DNA from: Candidatus Yanofskybacteria bacterium RIFCSPHIGHO2_01_FULL_44_24
GTDB lineage: Bacteria > Patescibacteriota > Minisyncoccia > 2-02-FULL-40-12 > GWA2-44-9
Assembly: GCA_001794215.1 (NCBI GenBank)
Contig: MGJK01000018.1
Location: 1 to 59,152 of the forward strand
DNA: 59,152 nucleotides
Direction: 5' to 3'
Under the pieces are notes generated by a model. It was not told where the DNA came from, ran no database searches, and saw nothing but the letters and a program-made list of their open reading frames with translations. Both the position numbers and the translations under genes were made by a program. This document shows, in pieces, positions 4,918 through 59,095 of this stretch (position 1 is its first letter; the number at the start of each line of letters is the position of its first letter).

Positions 4918-4955
4918 ACCCCTACCCTTTATGATATATCATAAAGGGTAGGGGT
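4918..4955. repeat. PAL24 palindrome copy 1 (core CCCTTTATGATATATCATAAAGGG at 4925-4948, extended to 38 bp by ACCCCTA/TAGGGGT arms)
   Basis: Perfect inverted repeat read directly from the sequence. Intergenic, downstream of the 3511-4830 gene. Confidence 0.9.
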
Positions 4956-8097: not shown

Positions 8098-9252
8098 GTG
8101 AACAAGGTGAAAAGTCAATCAAAAACAATATATGTCGCCATGTCTGGCGGAGTGGATTCGAGCGTTGCGGCGGCATTACTCAAAAAACAAGGCTATAACG
8201 TAGTCGGGGTTTTTATGAAGCCGTGGCAGCCTTCGGCTTCAAATTCTAAATCCCAAATCCGAAATTCTAAACAAATTCTAAATCCCAAATCCGAAATTCT
8301 AAACGGGGAACTCTGTCTATGGAAGCAGGACAGAGAGGATGCCATGCGGGCGGCGGCGGTATTGGATATACCGCTTTTGACTTGGGATTTTTCAAAAGAA
8401 TACAAAAAAGAAGTGGGAGATTATATGATCCGGGAATATAGAGCCGGCCGGACGCCGAATCCGGATGTAATGTGCAATAAGGAAATCAAATTTGGCCTGT
8501 TTCTGAAGAGGGCTTTAAGGGAGGGAGCGGACTTTATTGCTACGGGACACTACGTGCGGCTAAAGCCGCAATTTCCAATTTCCAATTTTCAATTTTCAAG
8601 GAAACCACAGACTGGATTCAGACTTCTGCAAGCGATAGACAAGAATAAAGATCAGTCGTATTTCCTATGGACCTTGACCCAGGCGCAACTGAAGCATTGT
8701 TTGTTTCCGATAGGGGATTATGTGAAGCCGGAAGTAAGGAAAATGGCCAAGAAATTCGGACTGCCTAACCATGCTAAAAAAGACAGCCAGGGAGTATGCT
8801 TTATCGGGCCGTTAGATATGAAAGAATTTCTCAAAAAATATATTAGACCCAAGAAGGGCCAAATAATAGACAAGGAAGGTACCGTCATCGGGGAACATGA
8901 TGGAGCCTTTTATTATACCATCGGCCAAAGACACGGACTGGATATAAAAAACGGCCAAGGACCATACTATGTAATCGCAAAGAATTTAAAGAAAAACATT
9001 ATCTATGTCGGTAAAGACAAAGATTTAACAACGAAGAAGGCCCATGTCTCAGGCATAAATTGGACCAACTCTCGTATTAAATTACCGACTAAGATAGACG
9101 TGAAGGTAAGATACAGAGCCAAATCAGAAACGGCTAACTTATCTAAAAGAGGGGATTTGGAATTCAGAAAACCAATTCGAGCCATTACTCCCGGCCAATC
9201 AGCCGTTTTCTATAAAGGCGAGGAACTTGTCGGAGGGGGGATTATCGACTAA
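8098..9252 (+). CDS. mnmA: tRNA-specific 2-thiouridylase MnmA carrying two repeat-derived insertions
   Basis: PP-loop SGGVDSS. Also GHYVR, KDQSYFLW and GVCFIGP (second catalytic Cys region). GTG start. Confidence 0.9.
   Translation: MNKVKSQSKTIYVAMSGGVDSSVAAALLKKQGYNVVGVFMKPWQPSASNSKSQIRNSKQILNPKSEILNGELCLWKQDREDAMRAAAVLDIPLLTWDFSKEYKKEVGDYMIREYRAGRTPNPDVMCNKEIKFGLFLKRALREGADFIATGHYVRLKPQFPISNFQFSRKPQTGFRLLQAIDKNKDQSYFLWTLTQAQLKHCLFPIGDYVKPEVRKMAKKFGLPNHAKKDSQGVCFIGPLDMKEFLKKYIRPKKGQIIDKEGTVIGEHDGAFYYTIGQRHGLDIKNGQGPYYVIAKNLKKNIIYVGKDKDLTTKKAHVSGINWTNSRIKLPTKIDVKVRYRAKSETANLSKRGDLEFRKPIRAITPGQSAVFYKGEELVGGGIID
8241..8304 (+). repeat. perfect 2 x 32-bp tandem repeat (AAATTCTAAATCCCAAATCCGAAATTCTAAAC) inside mnmA
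   Basis: 8241-8272 is identical to 8273-8304. The two copies are translated in different frames as NSKSQIRNSKQ and ILNPKSEILN. Confidence 0.95.
8569..8600 (+). repeat. AT-rich oligomer array (CAATTTC/CAATTTT units) inside mnmA
   Basis: CAATTTCCAATTTCCAATTTTCAATTTTCAAG encodes QFPISNFQFS. It is the reverse-orientation relative of the AAATTC/GAAAATTG family. Confidence 0.85.
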
Positions 9253-12612: not shown

Positions 12613-12652
12613 AAATTCTAAATTCTAATATCCAAACTCTAAACAACTCTAA
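12613..12652. repeat. AT-rich oligomer array (AAATTCTAAA type), intergenic
   Basis: GAAATTCTAAATTCTAATATCCAAACTCTAAACAACTCTAA. Confidence 0.8.
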
Positions 12653-13114: not shown

Positions 13115-14647
13115 ATGTTTTCAAGTTTGAATCCGCTGATAGCGGCAGTTTCGGCTTTGCTTCCAGGCTTGATAATCGGTTACCTCGTCAGACAGCTGAT
13201 AGTAAGCAGGCGAATCAGCGCCGCCGAATCTCGGGCTGAGTCTCTTCTCAATGAAGCAAAATCAAAGTCTCAGGACATTCTCCTTGAATCTAAAAACAAG
13301 GCTTTTAAGGTACTCGAAGATGCCAAGAAAGAGGAAAAAGAAAGGCATTCCCAATTAGCCAGGATAGAAAACCTGCTCACTAAAAAAGAAGATGAGCTCG
13401 AAGCCAAGCACCGGGAGGTTTCGAGTGAGAAAAACACCCTGAAAACCAAAATGGAGGAAGTGGATGCCCTGCGTGTTACCCTCCAGAATGAGAAAGCAAG
13501 GCACGTCAGCGAATTAGAAAGGGTAGCCGGACTCAGCAAAGACAAAGCTAAAGCCGAACTCGTTTCCGCCTTAGAAGACGAATACAAAGACGATCTTTAT
13601 CAAAGAATAAAGAAGCTGGAACAGGGCAATAGAGATGAACTTGATAAAAAGGCTCGTGAAATTTTAACCTTGGCTATCCAGAGATTTGCCTCATCCCACA
13701 TCGCCGATGCCACCACCACCGTAGTCAACCTGCCCTCAGATGAAGTAAAGGGTAAGATCATCGGAAAAGAGGGAAGAAATATTAAAACTATCGAACGCTT
13801 AACCGGCGTAGACGTAATCATAGACGATACCCCCGAAGCATTGGTGGTATCCGGATTCGACCCGGTCAGAAGACAGATAGCAAAGTTAGCCATCGAAAAA
13901 TTGATAGCCGACGGACGTATTCACCCGGCAAAGATAGAAGAATTGGTTGAAAAGGCTAAAAATGAAATAAATGAAAAAATGAAAGAAGCAGGGGAGGCTG
14001 CACTTTTTGAAACGGGCATCGGACCGGTAGACCAGCGCCTTGTCTATCTTTTGGGCCGCTTAGCTTTCAGGACAAGCTTCGGACAGAATGTCCTTCTTCA
14101 TTCGATCGAAATGGCCCATGTCGCCGGAATGCTTGCGGCGGAACTTGGAGCTGACGTTGGCGTAGCCAAAAAAGGCGCCTTGTTCCATGACATTGGAAAA
14201 GCAGTGGATCACGAAGTGCAAGGCACGCATGTAGAGATAGGCAGAAAAATCCTCCAGAAATTCGGTATGGATGACAAGGTCATAAAGGCCATGGAAGCCC
14301 ATCACGAAGAATACCCGTATGTGACCCTGGAATCCCGCATAGTCCAGACAGCCGATGCCATATCGGGCGGAAGGCCGGGTGCCAGAAAAGATACGGTTGA
14401 AATATACTTAAAGAGGCTCGAAGACCTCGAAAGAATCGCCGGGTCATTCGGTGGCGTTGAGAAATCTTATGCAATTCAGGCCGGCAGAGAAATGAGAATA
14501 TTCGTTACTCCTACTCAAATTGACGATTTGCAGGCTATCAAATTGGCAAAGGATATAGCCAAGAAGATAGAAGAGGAAATGAAGTACCCCGGAGAAATCA
14601 AGGTAAATGTCATCAGAGAAACTCGAGCCATAGAGTACGCCAGGTAG
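13115..14647 (+). CDS. rny: ribonuclease Y
   Basis: N-terminal TM helix, coiled coil, KH motif GKIIGKEGRNIKTIE and HD domain LFHDIGKA. Confidence 0.92.
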   Translation: MFSSLNPLIAAVSALLPGLIIGYLVRQLIVSRRISAAESRAESLLNEAKSKSQDILLESKNKAFKVLEDAKKEEKERHSQLARIENLLTKKEDELEAKHREVSSEKNTLKTKMEEVDALRVTLQNEKARHVSELERVAGLSKDKAKAELVSALEDEYKDDLYQRIKKLEQGNRDELDKKAREILTLAIQRFASSHIADATTTVVNLPSDEVKGKIIGKEGRNIKTIERLTGVDVIIDDTPEALVVSGFDPVRRQIAKLAIEKLIADGRIHPAKIEELVEKAKNEINEKMKEAGEAALFETGIGPVDQRLVYLLGRLAFRTSFGQNVLLHSIEMAHVAGMLAAELGADVGVAKKGALFHDIGKAVDHEVQGTHVEIGRKILQKFGMDDKVIKAMEAHHEEYPYVTLESRIVQTADAISGGRPGARKDTVEIYLKRLEDLERIAGSFGGVEKSYAIQAGREMRIFVTPTQIDDLQAIKLAKDIAKKIEEEMKYPGEIKVNVIRETRAIEYAR

Positions 14648-14649
14648 CC

Positions 14650-14965
14650 TCTCGACCCCGATTCTCTCGAGGCACCGCATAGATACACTCAGCCTTGACT
14701 TATTCGAGGCACGCCATAAAGACGCTCCACTTTAACCCATGCAAGGCACGGCGTAAATTTCTCACTGAAATTTCGCCTTTTACCTGCCTGCCGGCAGGCA
14801 GGCTCGGCCCAGTCGGCCTCCGTAAATCCTTTCATGGTCTAAAGCTTCGCTTGGTGTTTGAACAAAAAGCCTGCGGGAATACTCTCATGAACAAAGAGCG
14901 GGGTCTCAAATGCTTCAGAATGACAAGGGGCTTCGCCTTAGTTTCCCTTAGTCGGATTAAGGCTC
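14650..14965 (-). repeat. R1 intergenic repeat, copy A (reverse orientation), interrupted by PAL20
   Basis: The reverse complement of 14803-14880 matches GGATTTACGGAGGCCGACTGGGCCGAG and upstream units of copies B and C. It contains a covarying hairpin at 14750-14777. Confidence 0.8.
14783..14802. repeat. PAL20 perfect palindrome CCTGCCTGCCGGCAGGCAGG inserted in R1 copy A
   Basis: Copies B and C read CCGAG-TAAAAGG without interruption. Copy A has the palindrome (plus one G) at exactly this junction. Confidence 0.9.
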
Positions 14966-15181
14966 TGCTAAAATTTTTCCTATCAGGCCGTTAGCCGTCC
15001 GTCTGATAATATCAACAGTAGGGTTGATATAGCGAGGAAAATAGCGGAAAATAGAAGCAGCACTTGATTAATTGTCCGGTCGATACAATTAAGACCAACG
15101 GGTAATCCGATGCGTCTTAGACCGAGTTAAGCCTAACAAGCTTGAGGCTTTTCCGGTTGAAACGCAAAAATTTAATCGAAA

Positions 15182-15460
15182 ATGCCAATTAAAAAGAACC
15201 AGTTAGTTCAAATCTTGGCTGAGAGAATGCAAGCCTCGAAAAAGCAGTCTTTGGAATGGCTTGATGCCTTTACGGATGAAATCACCAAGGCCTTAAGAAA
15301 GGGGGAGAAGATCAACATCACCGGATTCGGTATTTTTAAAGTTTCCGACAGAAAAGCCCGGGAGGGCGTTAATCCTCGAACAGGAGAAAAAATCCAGATC
15401 AAGGCTTCCAAGAAACCCAAATTCACTGCCGGTAAATTGCTCAAAGAAGCAGTGAAGTAA
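15182..15460 (+). CDS. hup: HU-family DNA-binding protein
   Basis: 92 aa. GFGIFKVSDRKAREGVNPRTGEKIQIKASKKPKF is the HU/IHF arm signature. Confidence 0.9.
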   Translation: MPIKKNQLVQILAERMQASKKQSLEWLDAFTDEITKALRKGEKINITGFGIFKVSDRKAREGVNPRTGEKIQIKASKKPKFTAGKLLKEAVK

Positions 15461-28283: not shown

Positions 28284-28327
28284 TAAACCGCCGCCCTTTA
28301 TGATATATCATAAAGGGCGGCGGTTTA
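28284..28327. repeat. PAL24 palindrome copy 2 (44-bp perfect palindrome; core 28294-28317)
   Basis: TAAACCGCCG-CCCTTTATGATATATCATAAAGGG-CGGCGGTTTA. Intergenic, downstream of the PBP1A gene. Confidence 0.9.
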
Positions 28328-41103: not shown

Positions 41104-42756
41104 TTAGGCAGCCTCTTGAGTCTCGACTCTGGTTTCCGGTTCTGGAGGAAGGGCTTTTTCTATTTCTTCATCGGTTATTTTAATCAATCCCTTCGTTACT
41201 TCTTTAAGTATCTGCGCCTTCAAATCTCGAGACAAAAACTGTTCCGGCCCGCCGGAAGGCTTACCAGCCTCGAGCCAATGACTAAACACTTCCTTAAATT
41301 CTTTGGTTGTTATTTCTAAAACCAAAACCTCATCTACTATTTTTGCCACTCCTTTTTTATACTTTCTCAGATTTATAGATAGTCCGCTCCCCTTTTTATC
41401 CAAATGGGTTTTTAACTGTATCCCTAACTTATAAAGAGTGCCCTTAACACTCTCTCCCTCTTCTAATTTTACGCCTCTATTCCTATTCTTGGCTCTTATT
41501 TTAAAATCATACTTATAAACACCGTCCTCAAAAGAGTTTGCCCGCATAACTATAAAATCCAGATCGTTATTTAAACTTAGCCTGTTGAATAACTCTCTAA
41601 CAACCACCTCTGCCATAAGCCCCAACGTCCCTGCTTGATTTTTTTCGAATTTGGAAAGTTCTGGAAAGGCAGTACTCGCACCAGTTTCTGAAGAAGCCAG
41701 CTCTCTATCATATATCCCCTCTAAATCCCTTCTCGTCTCATTAACTAAGATCCTCTTGGCTAACTGTCTATAAGCCGGCTCTATCATCTCACCATCAGGA
41801 ACATATTTAATTCCCCAGGCATAATCAGAAACAATATCTCCTATGCCTATAGATTTCCTGCTACCGTTTTCTTCCATATAATACTCCCCCGTTTCTTCAT
41901 CAAAATATACGACCCTTCTCGACTCTTCGCCAAATTCTTTTACTATCTCGCCCTTGTCAAGGTTTTTGATAGCCTTTTTTAGTTCCGACATTCTTTCTAT
42001 TTTCTTCTCACCGTATTTTTCTTTTAGTCTTTTAATCTTTTTGTCAGATCGTTCAAGTTTTCGGTCCGCTTTTTCTTTATTCCTTTTCTCTTCTTGCTCT
42101 CTCTCTTGCTCCGGAGTAAGGTGACGATTGGAAAAGCTAACCCCGAATCTTTCTTTCCACCACTTTTCTAACGCCCGATCAAATGCGGATTGGCTTTTCG
42201 GCGGAAGCCGTTCTCCGCTCAGCTTTCGGTTGATGAGGTCTTGTATCTCTTCGGAAAACTCTAACTTGGCCTCAACCACAATATCCCACCACCCCTTTTC
42301 AGCGTCTCTCTCGGTTCTTTCAGGTTTTTGATCTTCGATAGTCTGGTCACCTTCACCTTCCCGAGCCTCAATTTCTTTTTCTTTTGCTGTGCCGGGTTTC
42401 GTTCCTCTTGTTAGTATTTCTGCCGCAACTCGTTTTCGATTATACTTCGCAAAATCTGCTCCGAACTTATCTTTAAACCACTGGGTGGCAGCAGAGTTAA
42501 ATTGAGACTGCTCCTCCGGTTCAAGAGCCTCGCCACGAGACATTTTATTGATAAGGTCGAGTAGATTCTCCGGAATCTCTTTCCGGAAAGCCATTAAAAT
42601 CTTCCTCATTAAGCGCCTCCGTCCGATATCGCCATAAATGCCCTTGCGAGTCTCCTTATTGTACTGAGTTTCTGTCTCGGAATTTTTTACTTCAAACTCC
42701 GGGATCGCAATATCCCCTTCTAAGCTTTTGCCGATTTTAGGTCCTCGTTCTCGCAT
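41104..42756 (-). CDS. Lys/Glu-rich hypothetical protein with an internal about 45-aa duplication
   Basis: 550-aa ORF. LLDLINKMSRGEALEPEEQSQFNSAATQWFKDKFGADF aligns to IQDLINRKLSGERLPPKSQSAFDRALEKWWKERFGVSF. Confidence 0.7.
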   Translation of the reverse strand: MRERGPKIGKSLEGDIAIPEFEVKNSETETQYNKETRKGIYGDIGRRRLMRKILMAFRKEIPENLLDLINKMSRGEALEPEEQSQFNSAATQWFKDKFGADFAKYNRKRVAAEILTRGTKPGTAKEKEIEAREGEGDQTIEDQKPERTERDAEKGWWDIVVEAKLEFSEEIQDLINRKLSGERLPPKSQSAFDRALEKWWKERFGVSFSNRHLTPEQEREQEEKRNKEKADRKLERSDKKIKRLKEKYGEKKIERMSELKKAIKNLDKGEIVKEFGEESRRVVYFDEETGEYYMEENGSRKSIGIGDIVSDYAWGIKYVPDGEMIEPAYRQLAKRILVNETRRDLEGIYDRELASSETGASTAFPELSKFEKNQAGTLGLMAEVVVRELFNRLSLNNDLDFIVMRANSFEDGVYKYDFKIRAKNRNRGVKLEEGESVKGTLYKLGIQLKTHLDKKGSGLSINLRKYKKGVAKIVDEVLVLEITTKEFKEVFSHWLEAGKPSGGPEQFLSRDLKAQILKEVTKGLIKITDEEIEKALPPEPETRVETQEAA

Positions 42757-42860: not shown

Positions 42861-42884
42861 CCCTTTATGATATATCATAAAGGG
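42861..42884. repeat. PAL24 palindrome copy 3 (core only)
   Basis: CCCTTTATGATATATCATAAAGGG. The flanks are not complementary here. Confidence 0.9.
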
Positions 42885-42902: not shown

Positions 42903-43045
42903 CTTGGTTTATGGAAATTTTTGTTTAAACGATAAGCGAAGCCTTAACCCGATGAAGGGATTTACGGAGGCCGACTGGGCCGAGTAAAAGGCAAGATTTT
43001 AGCAAAAATCTATGCCGTGCCCTGAAATGGGTTAAGGCGAAGCAC
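42903..43045 (+). repeat. R1 intergenic repeat, copy B
   Basis: 42952-43026 is identical (75/75 by my alignment) to 58999-59073. Hairpin at 42990-43016. Confidence 0.85.
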
Positions 43046-43047
43046 CT

Positions 43048-43503
43048 TTATTCGGACTTAATAGAGACCTTGAACTCTGCTTTGATTTCCGGAGCAAGTT
43101 CAACTTCAATCATATGTTCGCCTAATTTTTTGATATGCTCGCCGTGTTCCTTAAAATCAACCGAGTCAGCTTCCACCTTGGCACCAACGGCTTTGGATAA
43201 TTCTTGGGCAACTTCTTCCTTGGTCAGAGAAGAATAGAGCTTGCCGGCTTTACTGGCCTTTTTGGTAAATTCTAAAACGAGATCCCTGACTCTTCCAACC
43301 GCCTCCAGGGCCTTCTCTTTTTCCATCTTAAGAGTCGCCTCAAGCTTTTTCTTAAGAGCGCTGACCTCGTTTAAGGCTCCATCCGTAGCTAACTTAGCCA
43401 TTTTTCTCGGCAGTAAATAGTTCTTTCCGTAGCCATCGGAAACATTCTTAACATCTCCGATCTGGCCATAACCTTTTATGTTTTGCAGTAAAATGATCTT
43501 CAT
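43048..43503 (-). CDS. rplI: 50S ribosomal protein L9
   Basis: MKIILLQNIKGYGQIGDVKNVSDGYGKNYLLPRKMA. Confidence 0.9.
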   Translation of the reverse strand: MKIILLQNIKGYGQIGDVKNVSDGYGKNYLLPRKMAKLATDGALNEVSALKKKLEATLKMEKEKALEAVGRVRDLVLEFTKKASKAGKLYSSLTKEEVAQELSKAVGAKVEADSVDFKEHGEHIKKLGEHMIEVELAPEIKAEFKVSIKSE

Positions 43504-43634
43504 AAATTCTAAGCACTAAGCACTAAATTCTAAACAAATTCAAAATCCTAAACCCAAAAGCTTTAAACTGTTTTAATATTGGAGTTTCGATCATTTGACG
43601 TTGTTTAGTATTTAGGTATTAGAATTTAGAGTTT
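43504..43634. repeat. AT-rich oligomer arrays in inverted arrangement abutting the rplI start codon
   Basis: Left arm AAATTCTAAGCACTAAGCACTAAATTCTAAACAAATTCAAAATCCTAAACCC. Right arm GTTTAGTATTTAGGTATTAGAATTTAGAGTTT. Confidence 0.8.
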
Positions 43635-51357: not shown

Positions 51358-51472
51358 AAACTCTAAATCCTAATGTCTAAATTCTAAACAATATCCAATA
51401 TTAAAACTCTAATGTTCGAAATTTAATATCTTGAGATTTGAATTTTGTATTTGTTTAGAAATTAGGATTTCG
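51358..51472. repeat. AT-rich oligomer arrays in inverted arrangement, abutting the GT4 start codon
   Basis: Left arm AAACTCTAAATCCTAATGTCTAAATTCTAAAC. Right arm GTTTAGAAATTAGGATTTCG. Confidence 0.8.
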
Positions 51473-55729: not shown

Positions 55730-55867
55730 AATATTAAATCCGAAATACGAAATCCTAAATCCTAAACAAAGCCCGAAAATCTTAAATTCTAATTTCCAAA
55801 CCTTTTGAAATTTAGAAAATTTGCATTTCGATATTGTTTCGAATCTCGAATTTCGTATTTCGAATTT
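55730..55867. repeat. AT-rich oligomer arrays filling the murA-mreB intergenic region
   Basis: Left side AAATCCGAAATACGAAATCCTAAATCCTAAAC...AAATTCTAATTTCC. Right side CGAATCTCGAATTTCGTATTTCGAATTT in inverted orientation. Confidence 0.8.
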
Positions 55868-58796: not shown

Positions 58797-58840
58797 CAAT
58801 CCGCCACCCTTTATGATATATCATAAAGGGTGGCGGATTG
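58797..58840. repeat. PAL24 palindrome copy 4 (44-bp perfect palindrome; core 58807-58830)
   Basis: CAATCCGCCA-CCCTTTATGATATATCATAAAGGG-TGGCGGATTG. Confidence 0.9.
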
Positions 58841-59095
58841 AGACAGGCCTTGGCTTATGAGAGGATTTGCATAGGTTCCTATTTATCAAGCGTAGCCGTA
58901 ACCCATGAAAGGATTCACGAAAAGCCATAACGAAGCCTTGGCTTATTAGAGGATTTGCGCAGGCTTTTTGTTCAAACATCAAGCGCAGCCTTAACCCTAT
59001 GAAGGGATTTACGGAGGCCGACTGGGCCGAGTAAAAGGCAAGATTTTAGCAAAAATCTATGCCGTGCCCTGAACGGGTTAATTCGAAGCGTTTTT
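58841..59095 (+). repeat. R1 intergenic repeat, copy C (two tandem about 90-nt units plus hairpin tail)
   Basis: Units start with GCCTTGGCTTATGAGAGGATTTGC (58848) and GCCTTGGCTTATTAGAGGATTTGC (58937). The tail is identical to copy B. Hairpin at 59037-59063. Confidence 0.85.

What the first reader, a model, noticed from the sequence alone, without database searches (positions are those of the whole stretch)
14650..14965. R1: an intergenic repeat family (3 loci) containing a hairpin whose sequence changes but whose pairing and bulge are preserved
The three copies are at 14650-14965 (reverse orientation), 42903-43045 and 58841-59095. Copies B and C share a 75-nt identical block (42952-43026 = 58999-59073). 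That block includes GGATTTACGGAGGCCGACTGGGCCGAG.

The adjacent hairpin is GGCA-AGATTTT-agca-AAAATCT-a-TGCC in B and C. In copy A, read in the same orientation, it is GGCG-AAATTTC-agtga-GAAATTT-a-CGCC. So several base pairs are exchanged in a compensatory way and the single bulged A is kept. That is the classic signature of a selected secondary structure.

For copies A and B the element lies directly 3' of a gene (rny, rplI) in the orientation where that mRNA would carry the reverse complement. In B and C it is followed by PAL24. For copy C the upstream gene lies beyond the window edge. Copy C contains two tandem about 90-nt units. I suspect a structured 3'-UTR element, an sRNA, or a mobile non-autonomous element.
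Basis: seen in the sequence. Interest (0 to 1): 0.65.

Follow-up and report, generated by a model that had tools for sequence, protein, structure and literature searches.

The report
Self-nesting structured intergenic repeat in Yanofskybacteria
The three repeats are copies of a gene-less folded element (a long hairpin capped by a conserved three-armed junction) that is scattered between housekeeping genes of a few ultra-small groundwater bacteria; I found no description of it, and it behaves like a small mobile element whose mover is unknown.

Summary
Three copies share an exact 27-mer, copies B and C share a 75-nt identical block, and the hairpin changes sequence while keeping its pairing and bulged A.

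With 45 distinct copies from related Candidatus Yanofskybacteria/Patescibacteria contigs, an 83-nt core folds into a three-way junction (P2, P3, P4) on a variable stem P1. 17 of 23 pairs show double changes and 98% of cells pair. Unpaired bases are nearly invariant, and the bulged A is kept in 45 of 45.

The fold is strand-specific: the sense strand is more stable in 41 of 42 copies. Orientation relative to neighbouring genes is random. Neighbours are housekeeping genes. The rny-hup spacer is empty in three relatives. Copies sit inside one another at the same apical site, in the order 5'5'5'-core-3'3'3'.

There is no Rfam match, and I found no paper describing it.

Best reading: a non-autonomous mobile repeat that spreads through a folded single strand (DNA or RNA). 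It resembles REP/REPIN, ERIC and Correia elements in lifestyle but is not a member of any of them. The 3'-UTR reading is disfavoured.

The parts
14735..14838 (-). Copy A, core three-way junction (P2, P3, P4), interrupted by a 20-nt palindrome
   Evidence: Covariance-model hit of 66.7 bits, E=2e-18. Sequence read.
14783..14802 (.). 20-nt palindrome CCTGCCTGCCGGCAGGCAGG inserted in the 3' strand of P3 of copy A. It is absent from B, C and all other copies.
   Evidence: Alignments. It forms an extra hairpin in the fold.
14724..14852 (-). Copy A, inner element including stem P1 and the flanking GCGAAGC / GTGGAGC G.A loop
14853..14898 (-). Copy A, 5' half of an outer (older) layer (ATGAGAGTATTCCCGCAGGC) plus the linker TTTTTGTTCAAACACC
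   Evidence: Pattern match at 14869-14888. Nested order shown.
14688..14723 (-). Copy A, 3' half of outer layer 1 (TTTATGGCGTGCCTCGA plus the P1 3' strand)
   Evidence: Pattern match at 14704-14720 with 0 mismatches.
14648..14687 (-). Copy A, 3' half of outer layer 2 (TCTATGCGGTGCCTCGA...CGGGGTC). It abuts the rny stop codon. Its 5' partner GAGACCCCG lies at 14899-14907.
   Evidence: Pattern match at 14667-14683. Fold.
14930..14969 (-). Core-less 'solo rod' hairpin AGCAGAGCCTTA...TAAGGCGAAGC at the 5' edge of the copy A complex
   Evidence: Read. Weak match to the P1-flank pattern. Folded.
42949..43031 (+). Copy B, core three-way junction
   Evidence: Covariance-model hit of 99.6 bits. Fold of -50.2 kcal/mol, z = -6.1.
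42934..43043 (+). Copy B, full inner element with P1 (GCCTTAACCC/GGGTTAAGGC) and GCGAAGC boxes on both sides
42903..42933 (+). Copy B, decayed outer-layer 5' half plus linker (TCTTGGTTTATGGAAA-TTTTTGTTTAAACGAT)
   Evidence: Alignment to copies A and C.
43044..43062 (+). Copy B, possible decayed outer-layer 3' half (ACCTTTATTCGGACTTAAT), overlapping the last codons and stop codon of rplI on the - strand
   Evidence: Read and compared by eye with copy A; not tested statistically.
58996..59078 (+). Copy C, core three-way junction
   Evidence: Covariance-model hit of 101.3 bits.
58981..59104 (+). Copy C, inner element with P1, its G.A loop, and the distal stem GTTTTTGTTTTGAAG that pairs with the upstream linker
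58847..58980 (+). Copy C, three successive 5' halves of outer layers, alternating types a, b, a.
   Evidence: (D15). The same a-b-a-b order with the same linkers occurs in L031 and L041.
42861..42884 (.). PAL24 palindrome next to copy B. It is a neighbour, not part of the element.
58807..58830 (.). PAL24 palindrome next to copy C. It is a neighbour, not part of the element.

Best explanation
R1 is a family of gene-less, interspersed, non-autonomous repeats. Each unit is a long irregular hairpin. Its stem P1 is 6-30 bp long, differs in sequence between subfamilies, and is punctuated by tandem G.A loops of the CGAG/CGAG, CGAAG/CGAAG and UGA/GAA kinds. The hairpin is capped by a conserved 83-nt three-way junction. 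The junction consists of P2 (GGG/CCC); P3 (UUUAC/GUAAA, a bulged G plus tandem G.A, and a 4-bp stem with loop GRCYG); and P4 (11 bp, loop AGCA, one bulged A). The joining strands are A, A and GUG.

I infer that the element multiplies through a folded single-stranded intermediate. This could be single-stranded DNA, as for HUH/Y1 enzymes on REP and IS200/IS605 ends, or RNA. An unidentified protein would recognise the invariant unpaired bases of the junction.

New copies land in short intergenic spacers in either orientation. They also land preferentially in the apex (the P3-P4 region) of resident copies, which builds Russian-doll nests and lengthens the rod.

Shown here: the structure, the covariation, the strand asymmetry, the random orientation, the patchy presence at orthologous sites, and the nesting. 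Inferred: mobility through a single strand, the protein partner, and apex targeting as a mechanism.
For: Structure:
- 45 distinct copies were collected.
- 98% of cells pair, 17 of 23 pairs show double changes, and 0 of 500 shuffles reach the observed values. Versions with the 3' partner slid by 1-3 columns pair at only 40-52%.
- All 11 P4 pairs covary. P3a covaries AU to GC in copies that were found only by the model.
- Unpaired bases are nearly invariant, including positions that were not used to collect the copies: bulged A 45/45, P4 loop A-G-C-A 44/43/38/43, and joining strand GUG 44/45/43.

Strand specificity: the sense fold is more stable in 41 of 42 copies (-57.7 against -48.0 kcal/mol, Wilcoxon p = 2e-8). 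There are 116 G.U pairs on the sense strand against 58 on the antisense strand. In the core there are 7 G.U cells against 1 A.C cell.

Not tied to host transcripts: orientation relative to neighbours is sense between co-directional genes 8, antisense 12, between divergent genes 8, between convergent genes 5. The neighbours are rny, hup, rplI, dprA, yebC, ruvC, xerC-like genes, transporters and the like.

Patchy presence: the rny-hup spacer carries the element in the window's species, but three relatives with 78-82% identical RNase Y have none there (L073, L075, L076). L076 instead has a copy upstream of rny, where the window has none.

Nesting: half-element motifs always appear in the order 5'..5'-core-3'..3' and never head to tail. 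There are up to three or four layers (L041), and the window's copy A reads 5' 3' 3' 3'. The 3' break always falls in the 3' strand of P4. Outer layers carry more mismatches than inner ones.

Abundance: contig depth over the repeat modules is 10-30 times that of the unique flanks. One relative (MGKE01) has at least 12 copies in about 70 kb sampled.
Against: - No transposase, reverse transcriptase or other candidate mover was found next to any copy.
- No target-site duplication or conserved target motif was found.
- No empty-site or excision variants appear within the population.
- The nested a-b-a-b order with the same linkers recurs in several genomes. Nests may therefore be copied as whole units, or they may be one large designed structure rather than repeated independent insertions.
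- Strong conservation of unpaired bases is also what a functional RNA would show.
- There is no orientation bias relative to gene direction (8 against 12), whereas IS200/IS605-type elements that depend on the lagging strand usually show one.
Confidence: 0.55

Rival explanations
1. R1 is a multi-copy structured RNA gene: a protein-binding or scaffold RNA transcribed from the sense strand. The three-way junction and tandem G.A loops would bind a dedicated protein. The copies would be paralogous genes rather than selfish DNA.
For: The unpaired nucleotides are invariant while the stems covary. The fold is strand-specific, with a G.U excess and Y-GA-R tandem G.A motifs. A weak + strand promoter-like site lies upstream of copy B.
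Against: No consistent promoter or terminator was seen in the two window loci scanned. Copies abut or overlap the ends of coding genes. Presence at orthologous sites is patchy. Truncated and nested copies are common. There are dozens of copies in genomes that I assume, from general knowledge of candidate-phyla-radiation bacteria, to be only about 1 Mb. No RNA data were available.
Confidence: 0.2
2. R1 is a host-used cis element. Its long perfect stems would act in either orientation as RNase III processing sites, mRNA stabilisers or insulators, or transcription barriers between tightly packed genes. This is what has been proposed for REP, ERIC and Correia elements.
For: The element always lies in short spacers directly at gene ends, for example 1-20 nt from the neighbour in many copies. 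Its 20-30 bp near-perfect helices fold on both strands.
Against: A duplex-only role does not explain the strand asymmetry, the invariant junction bases or the conserved bulges. Orthologous spacers in relatives do without it. No U-tract follows the stems.
Confidence: 0.12
3. The conserved three-way junction is a new self-cleaving or otherwise catalytic RNA carried by a repeat, as hammerhead and twister ribozymes often are.
For: The core is small and has near-invariant junction nucleotides with freely varying stems. It is multi-copy and carried on a repeat.
Against: It matches no known ribozyme family in Rfam 15, even at E up to 10. The junction strands (A, A, GUG) do not match the hammerhead core. 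There is no experimental handle here. Insertions of 20-50 nt within P3 are tolerated.
Confidence: 0.05

Closest known systems
REP / BIME / REPIN elements mobilised by RAYT (Y1 HUH) transposases (Bertels & Rainey 2011, PMC3116915; PMC3337134)
   Same: Both are high-copy, gene-less and intergenic. Both are recognised as a folded single strand with strand-specific features. Both occur in either orientation, often as inverted neighbours and mosaics, and lack terminal inverted repeats and target duplications.
   Different: REPs are 20-40 nt simple imperfect palindromes with a conserved GTAG/CGTC tag (PMC3733652). R1 is an 83-nt three-way junction on a 6-30 bp rod of variable sequence. No RAYT gene was seen. 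The inverted R1 pairs belong to different subfamilies and do not form one REPIN hairpin.
ERIC/IRU, Correia (NEMIS), BOX and RUP elements (compared from my own knowledge)
   Same: They are intergenic repeats of about 100-150 nt that fold into long imperfect hairpins. They come and go between housekeeping genes, and their stems keep pairing through compensatory change.
   Different: There is no sequence similarity. Those families are conserved along their whole length or at their terminal repeats (Correia also has a TA duplication). In R1 the ends vary, the apical junction is the conserved part, and R1 nests inside itself at a fixed site.
IS200/IS605 ends and their miniature derivatives (PATEs)
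   Same: Both show strand-specific recognition of hairpins with bulged bases, and both lack terminal inverted repeats and target duplications.
   Different: No conserved 4-5 nt target or cleavage motif was found at R1 borders. No TnpA or TnpB gene lies nearby. There is no orientation bias relative to gene direction (8 against 12).
Integron attC sites
   Same: Both have a structure conserved more than sequence, extrahelical bases, and a strand-specific fold.
   Different: attC conserves the base of the hairpin (the R and L boxes) and varies the apex. R1 does the opposite. There is no integrase, no cassette array and no fixed orientation.

Membership tests
Any Rfam 15 RNA family | Covariance-model score at or above the family's gathering threshold | tested here: not met
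   Only a tRNA was found in the whole window. At E up to 10 on copies A and B, and up to 1 on five relatives' loci, only chance-level hits appeared.
REP/REPIN-RAYT | 20-40 nt imperfect palindrome with a conserved 5' GTAG or CGTC tetranucleotide | tested here: not met
   The unit is an 83-nt three-way junction plus a rod, and no such tag lies at its borders.
REP/REPIN-RAYT | Inverted doublets of the same REP forming one long hairpin (REPIN) | tested here: inconclusive
   Seven divergent inverted pairs lie 40-190 nt apart. However, the two arms belong to different subfamilies, and each folds on itself.
REP/REPIN-RAYT | A RAYT (Y1 transposase) gene in the genome, flanked by REPs | not testable with these tools
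Genes flanked by inverted copies are dprA and yebC, not transposases.
DDE-type MITE | Terminal inverted repeats conserved among copies, plus a target-site duplication | tested here: not met
   The terminal arms (P1) differ completely between subfamilies while the centre is conserved. The apparent direct repeats GCGAAGC...GCGAAGC are symmetric tandem G.A loops, which appear as CGAG/CGAG in other subfamilies, and are not duplications.
IS200/IS605-derived PATE | Strand-specific subterminal hairpins | tested here: met
   The sense strand is more stable in 41 of 42 copies.
IS200/IS605-derived PATE | Conserved tetra- or pentanucleotide target 5' of the left end, and a TnpA gene in the genome | tested here: inconclusive
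   No conserved 5' border motif was seen by eye in the flanks. A TnpA search of the genome was not possible.
Kink-turn | Canonical stem, 3-nt bulge, tandem sheared G.A, non-canonical stem | tested here: not met
   P3 has tandem G.A (G19/A20 with G87/A88, kept in 41-45 of 45 copies) but only a 1-nt bulge. The P1/P2 G.A loop has no bulge.
Riboswitch or 5' leader, or 3'-UTR element | Fixed sense orientation next to a defined gene class | tested here: not met
   Orientation is random and the neighbours are unrelated housekeeping genes.
Integron attC | R''/L''-L'/R' boxes at the hairpin base, cassette array, and a nearby IntI | tested here: not met
   The conserved part is apical. The only tyrosine recombinase found is a XerC-like neighbour at one locus.
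TIGR array (PMC12045711) | Regular array of short dual repeats and spacers next to a Nop-domain Tas gene | tested here: not met
   There is no regular array and no such neighbouring gene.

The most novel reading that the evidence does not exclude
R1 and its relatives in Yanofskybacteria would be a new class of mobile nucleic-acid module. A three-way junction displayed on a G.A-laced rod would be recognised as a folded single strand by an undescribed enzyme. That enzyme would integrate new copies into the apex of resident copies, so that the elements grow by self-nesting. Alternatively, the junction itself could be a new catalytic or protein-recruiting RNA.
Probability: 0.25. Interest if true: 0.85.

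Novelty: new variant of a known kind. Interest (0 to 1): 0.6.

Why it matters
Candidate-phyla-radiation bacteria have tiny, tightly packed genomes. Even so, this lineage tolerates dozens of copies of an elaborate folded repeat wedged against gene ends, sometimes supplying a stop codon.

The covariation signal is as clean as that of a bona fide structured RNA. It is also strand-specific, yet the element ignores the direction of host transcription. That combination points to a single-stranded propagation intermediate and to an unknown recognition protein.

Finding that partner would add a new mobilisation system, or a new ribonucleoprotein, in a group whose mobile-element biology is, as far as I know, little explored. 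The fixed-site self-nesting offers a natural record of successive insertions.

Tried and rejected

2. Viral contigs. A relaxed pattern gave two hits that did not show the R1 fold and that I judged to be chance.

3. Genome collection. The strict 21-mer found only one related species (MGKE01). The other 22 loci are in GC-rich genomes of other phyla; I did not inspect them and treated them as chance hits.

4. RNA evidence. Only three or four tiny SOLiD metatranscriptomes were offered. Nothing could be laid on the element, and nothing on rplI either, so this is uninformative.

5. Population variants. Contigs from four DNA runs showed no empty site. Contigs carrying identical rplI or HU proteins all come from the same species and have the element in place.

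6. The idea that the core inserts into the loop of pre-existing hairpins, so that P1 would be target-derived. I rejected this for subfamily ii, because its P1 arms are homologous among paralogues from different contigs (GTCGGTATAGCAGGTATTTT and variants).

7. The idea that the GCGAAGC boxes are target duplications. I rejected this: they are symmetric G.A internal loops.

8. Loop-loop (kissing) covariation between the P3 and P4 loops. None was seen by eye.

9. Kink-turn, riboswitch, attC, TIGR and retron readings. Each was rejected on defining features; see the membership rows.

10. Three literature searches and two paper look-ups found no description of the family.

Full report
**Observation**

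The three loci are real. The 27-mer GGATTTACGGAGGCCGACTGGGCCGAG occurs exactly three times, at 14803-14829(-), 42958-42984(+) and 59005-59031(+), and none is expected by chance. Copies B and C are identical over 42952-43026 and 58999-59073, which is 75 nt, and the identity stops on both sides. The hairpin next to the shared block reads GGCA-AGATTTT-AGCA-AAAATCT-A-TGCC in B and C, and GGCG-AAATTTC-AGTGA-GAAATTT-A-CGCC in A.

Pfam confirms the neighbours. RNase Y (13115-14647, +) and HU (15182-15460, +) flank copy A. Ribosomal protein L9 (43048-43503, -) and a 550-aa protein with no Pfam match (41104-42756, -) flank copy B. Both copies are antisense to these genes.

**Anatomy**

Copy B folds at -50.2 kcal/mol, with z = -6.1 against shuffles. 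The fold has these parts:
- a closing stem P1;
- a short stem P2 (GGG/CCC);
- an arm P3, made of UUUAC/GUAAA, then a bulged G with tandem G.A, then a 4-bp stem with loop GACUG;

P2, P3 and P4 meet in a three-way junction whose joining strands are A, A and GUG.

**More copies**

- The 21-mer core found four copies in a related species, Candidatus Yanofskybacteria RIFCSPLOWO2_01_FULL_39_28.
- A pattern that left the P3 stem free found 32 matches on 30 groundwater metagenome stretches.
- A covariance model built from 29 copies then found 16 further copies that the patterns had missed.

This gave 45 distinct sequences. One of them (L029) comes from a GC-rich Patescibacteria-like contig. Its AT-rich P4 is replaced by a GC-rich stem with the same loop and bulge.

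**Covariation**

On the 45 copies, 98% of cells form standard pairs, and 17 of 23 pairs show changes on both sides. No shuffle out of 500 reaches the observed values. Versions in which the 3' partner is slid by 1-3 columns pair at only 40-52% (for the first 29 copies).

All 11 P4 pairs and all 4 pairs of the P3 tip covary. P3a, which the search patterns had fixed, covaries AU to GC in three model-only copies.

The unpaired bases are almost invariant. This includes positions the search patterns did not fix: the bulged A (45/45), the P4 loop A-G-C-A (44/43/38/43) and GUG (44/45/43). The tandem G.A positions of P3, which the metagenome pattern did fix, are kept in 41-45 of 45.

P1 differs completely in sequence and length between subfamilies but stays paired, with 12-34 predicted pairs for P1 plus P2. 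It carries further symmetric tandem G.A loops (CGAG/CGAG, CGAAG/CGAAG, UGA/GAA). These loops explain the GCGAAGC boxes on both sides of copies B and C. The boxes look like direct repeats but are not target duplications.

**Which strand**

I folded each copy with 30-nt flanks on both strands. It has 116 G.U pairs against 58 on the other strand. In the core there are 7 G.U cells against 1 A.C cell. What is under selection is therefore one folded single strand, not a DNA duplex.

**Context**

Relative to its neighbours, the element lies:
- in sense between co-directional genes 8 times;
- in antisense between co-directional genes 12 times;
- between divergent genes 8 times;
- between convergent genes 5 times.

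The neighbours are ordinary genes: dprA, yebC, ruvC, a xerC-like gene, an epimerase, glycosyltransferases and transporters. Many copies lie within 1-20 nt of a gene end. In L005 the dprA stop codon sits inside P1.

A consensus scan found no promoter for the sense strand at copy A and only a weak one at copy B. This pattern does not fit a 3'-UTR element, a leader or a riboswitch.

**Patchy presence**

Contigs carrying identical HU or L9 proteins are all from the same species and all have the element in place.

In three relatives whose RNase Y is 78-82% identical and where rny and hup are still neighbours or nearly so (L073, L075, L076), the covariance model finds nothing after rny. L076 instead has a copy upstream of rny, where the window has none. 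In a fourth relative, L074, other genes now lie after rny, so it is less informative; it also has no copy anywhere in 21.5 kb.

Summed contig depth over the repeat modules is 10-30 times that of the unique flanks. This shows many similar copies in the community, not a copy number for one genome.

**Nesting**

Motifs for the 5' half (GRATTYRCGSA) and the 3' half (TYTAYRNSGTGCC) always occur in the order 5'..5'-core-3'..3', never head to tail. Examples are three pairs in L041, L044 and L057, two pairs in L031 and L046, and 5' 3' 3' 3' at window copy A.

The host copy is always broken in the same place. Its 3' part resumes within a few bases inside the 3' strand of P4. Its 5' part ends at variable points between P2 and the P3 loop. 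Outer layers carry more mismatches than inner ones.

The same a-b-a-b order with the same linkers occurs in L031 and L041. The whole nests fold into one long rod, at -132 kcal/mol for L041.

Separately, copies of a third type sit inside subfamily-ii copies in L043, L046, L030 and L058. At least three kinds of nesting therefore use the same apical site.

**Interpretation**

Four features together are best explained by a non-autonomous element that multiplies through a folded single-stranded intermediate and is recognised by its junction:
- a strand-specific, strongly constrained fold;
- indifference to the direction of host transcription;
- patchy presence at orthologous sites;
- self-nesting.

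Under this reading, selection acts when the element is copied, not where it lands. I cannot tell single-stranded DNA from RNA, because tandem G.A and G.T/G.U pairs are stable in both.

No mover was found. No target duplication, conserved target motif or excision variant was seen. The repeated a-b-a-b architecture leaves open that nests are copied whole, or that they are one large functional structure. I put this reading at 0.55.

The rivals are a multi-copy structured RNA gene (0.2), a host-used processing or insulator element (0.12) and a ribozyme (0.05).

**Comparison with known systems**

Rfam 15 has nothing like it. Three full-text searches and two paper look-ups found no description.

In lifestyle it is closest to REP/BIME/REPIN, ERIC, Correia, BOX and RUP elements. 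It fails the defining features of each, as it does those of DDE-type MITEs, attC sites, kink-turns and TIGR arrays; the membership rows give the details. What is unusual is that the conserved part is an apical three-way junction while the ends vary. The element also nests in itself at a fixed site.

Earlier notes from this scan, on other pieces of this genome and of related genomes, describe what look like the same or sister families and reach similar conclusions. I used them as leads only.

**Limits**

- There was no access to the whole genome, so there is no copy count for the window's genome and no search for a partner gene.
- No usable RNA data exist.
- 29 of the 45 copies were collected with a pattern that fixed part of P3a and its flanks, so invariance there is partly by construction. 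The 16 model-only copies and the positions outside the pattern are free of that bias.
- Gene calls in the relatives' loci are simple longest-ORF calls.

Noticed in passing
window 14783-14802: The perfect 20-nt palindrome CCTGCCTGCCGGCAGGCAGG sits as a clean insertion in the 3' strand of P3 of copy A only. It looks like a separate, tiny insertion-prone palindrome.
   Followed up: partly
window 4925-4948, 28294-28317, 42861-42884, 58807-58830: The 24-nt palindrome CCCTTTATGATATATCATAAAGGG occurs four times, with different but self-complementary outer arms. Two copies lie directly 5' of R1 copies B and C. L075 has a similar CCCCATATATCATAATATGGGG after rny.
   Followed up: no
L073 2962-3100: Directly after the rny stop of a relative lies a different long-stemmed repeat: GTAACTTTGGAAAATRGCTTTGAGGAA arms around internal hairpins. 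On its reverse strand it shares the GAGG...CCCGCAGGC motif of the R1 'type a' 5' half. It may be a sister family at the same kind of site.
   Followed up: no
L049 2742-3055, L043 510-880, L046 205-560, L030 100-470 and 1780-2085, L036, L054: A recurrent composite occurs: a subfamily-ii copy on the minus strand, a 40-190 nt spacer, then a subfamily-iii copy on the plus strand. It is bounded by inverted boxes GTGCTAATTA ... TAATTAGCAC, extended to a perfect 16 bp in L046. Each unit thus carries a TAATTAGCA box just 3' of its P1. The window's own copies lack this box.
   Followed up: partly
L030 176-308: One copy carries a roughly 50-nt extra hairpin inside the P3 loop, so the P3 tip tolerates insertions.
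   Followed up: no
L005 6871-6888; window 43044-43062: Elements reach into coding ends. The dprA stop codon of the relative lies inside the 5' strand of P1. The last four codons and the stop codon of the window's rplI overlap what looks like a decayed outer 3' half.
   Followed up: partly
window 8241-8306, 12613-12646, 43504-43569, 51358-51391, 55736-55769: A separate AT-rich oligomer repeat family (AAATTCTAAATCC...) is dispersed in spacers.
   Followed up: no
L075 13711-15330; L076 16125-16928: The relatives' rny neighbourhoods carry a large serine recombinase and a DDE_Tnp_1 transposase respectively, but neither is next to an R1 copy.
   Followed up: no
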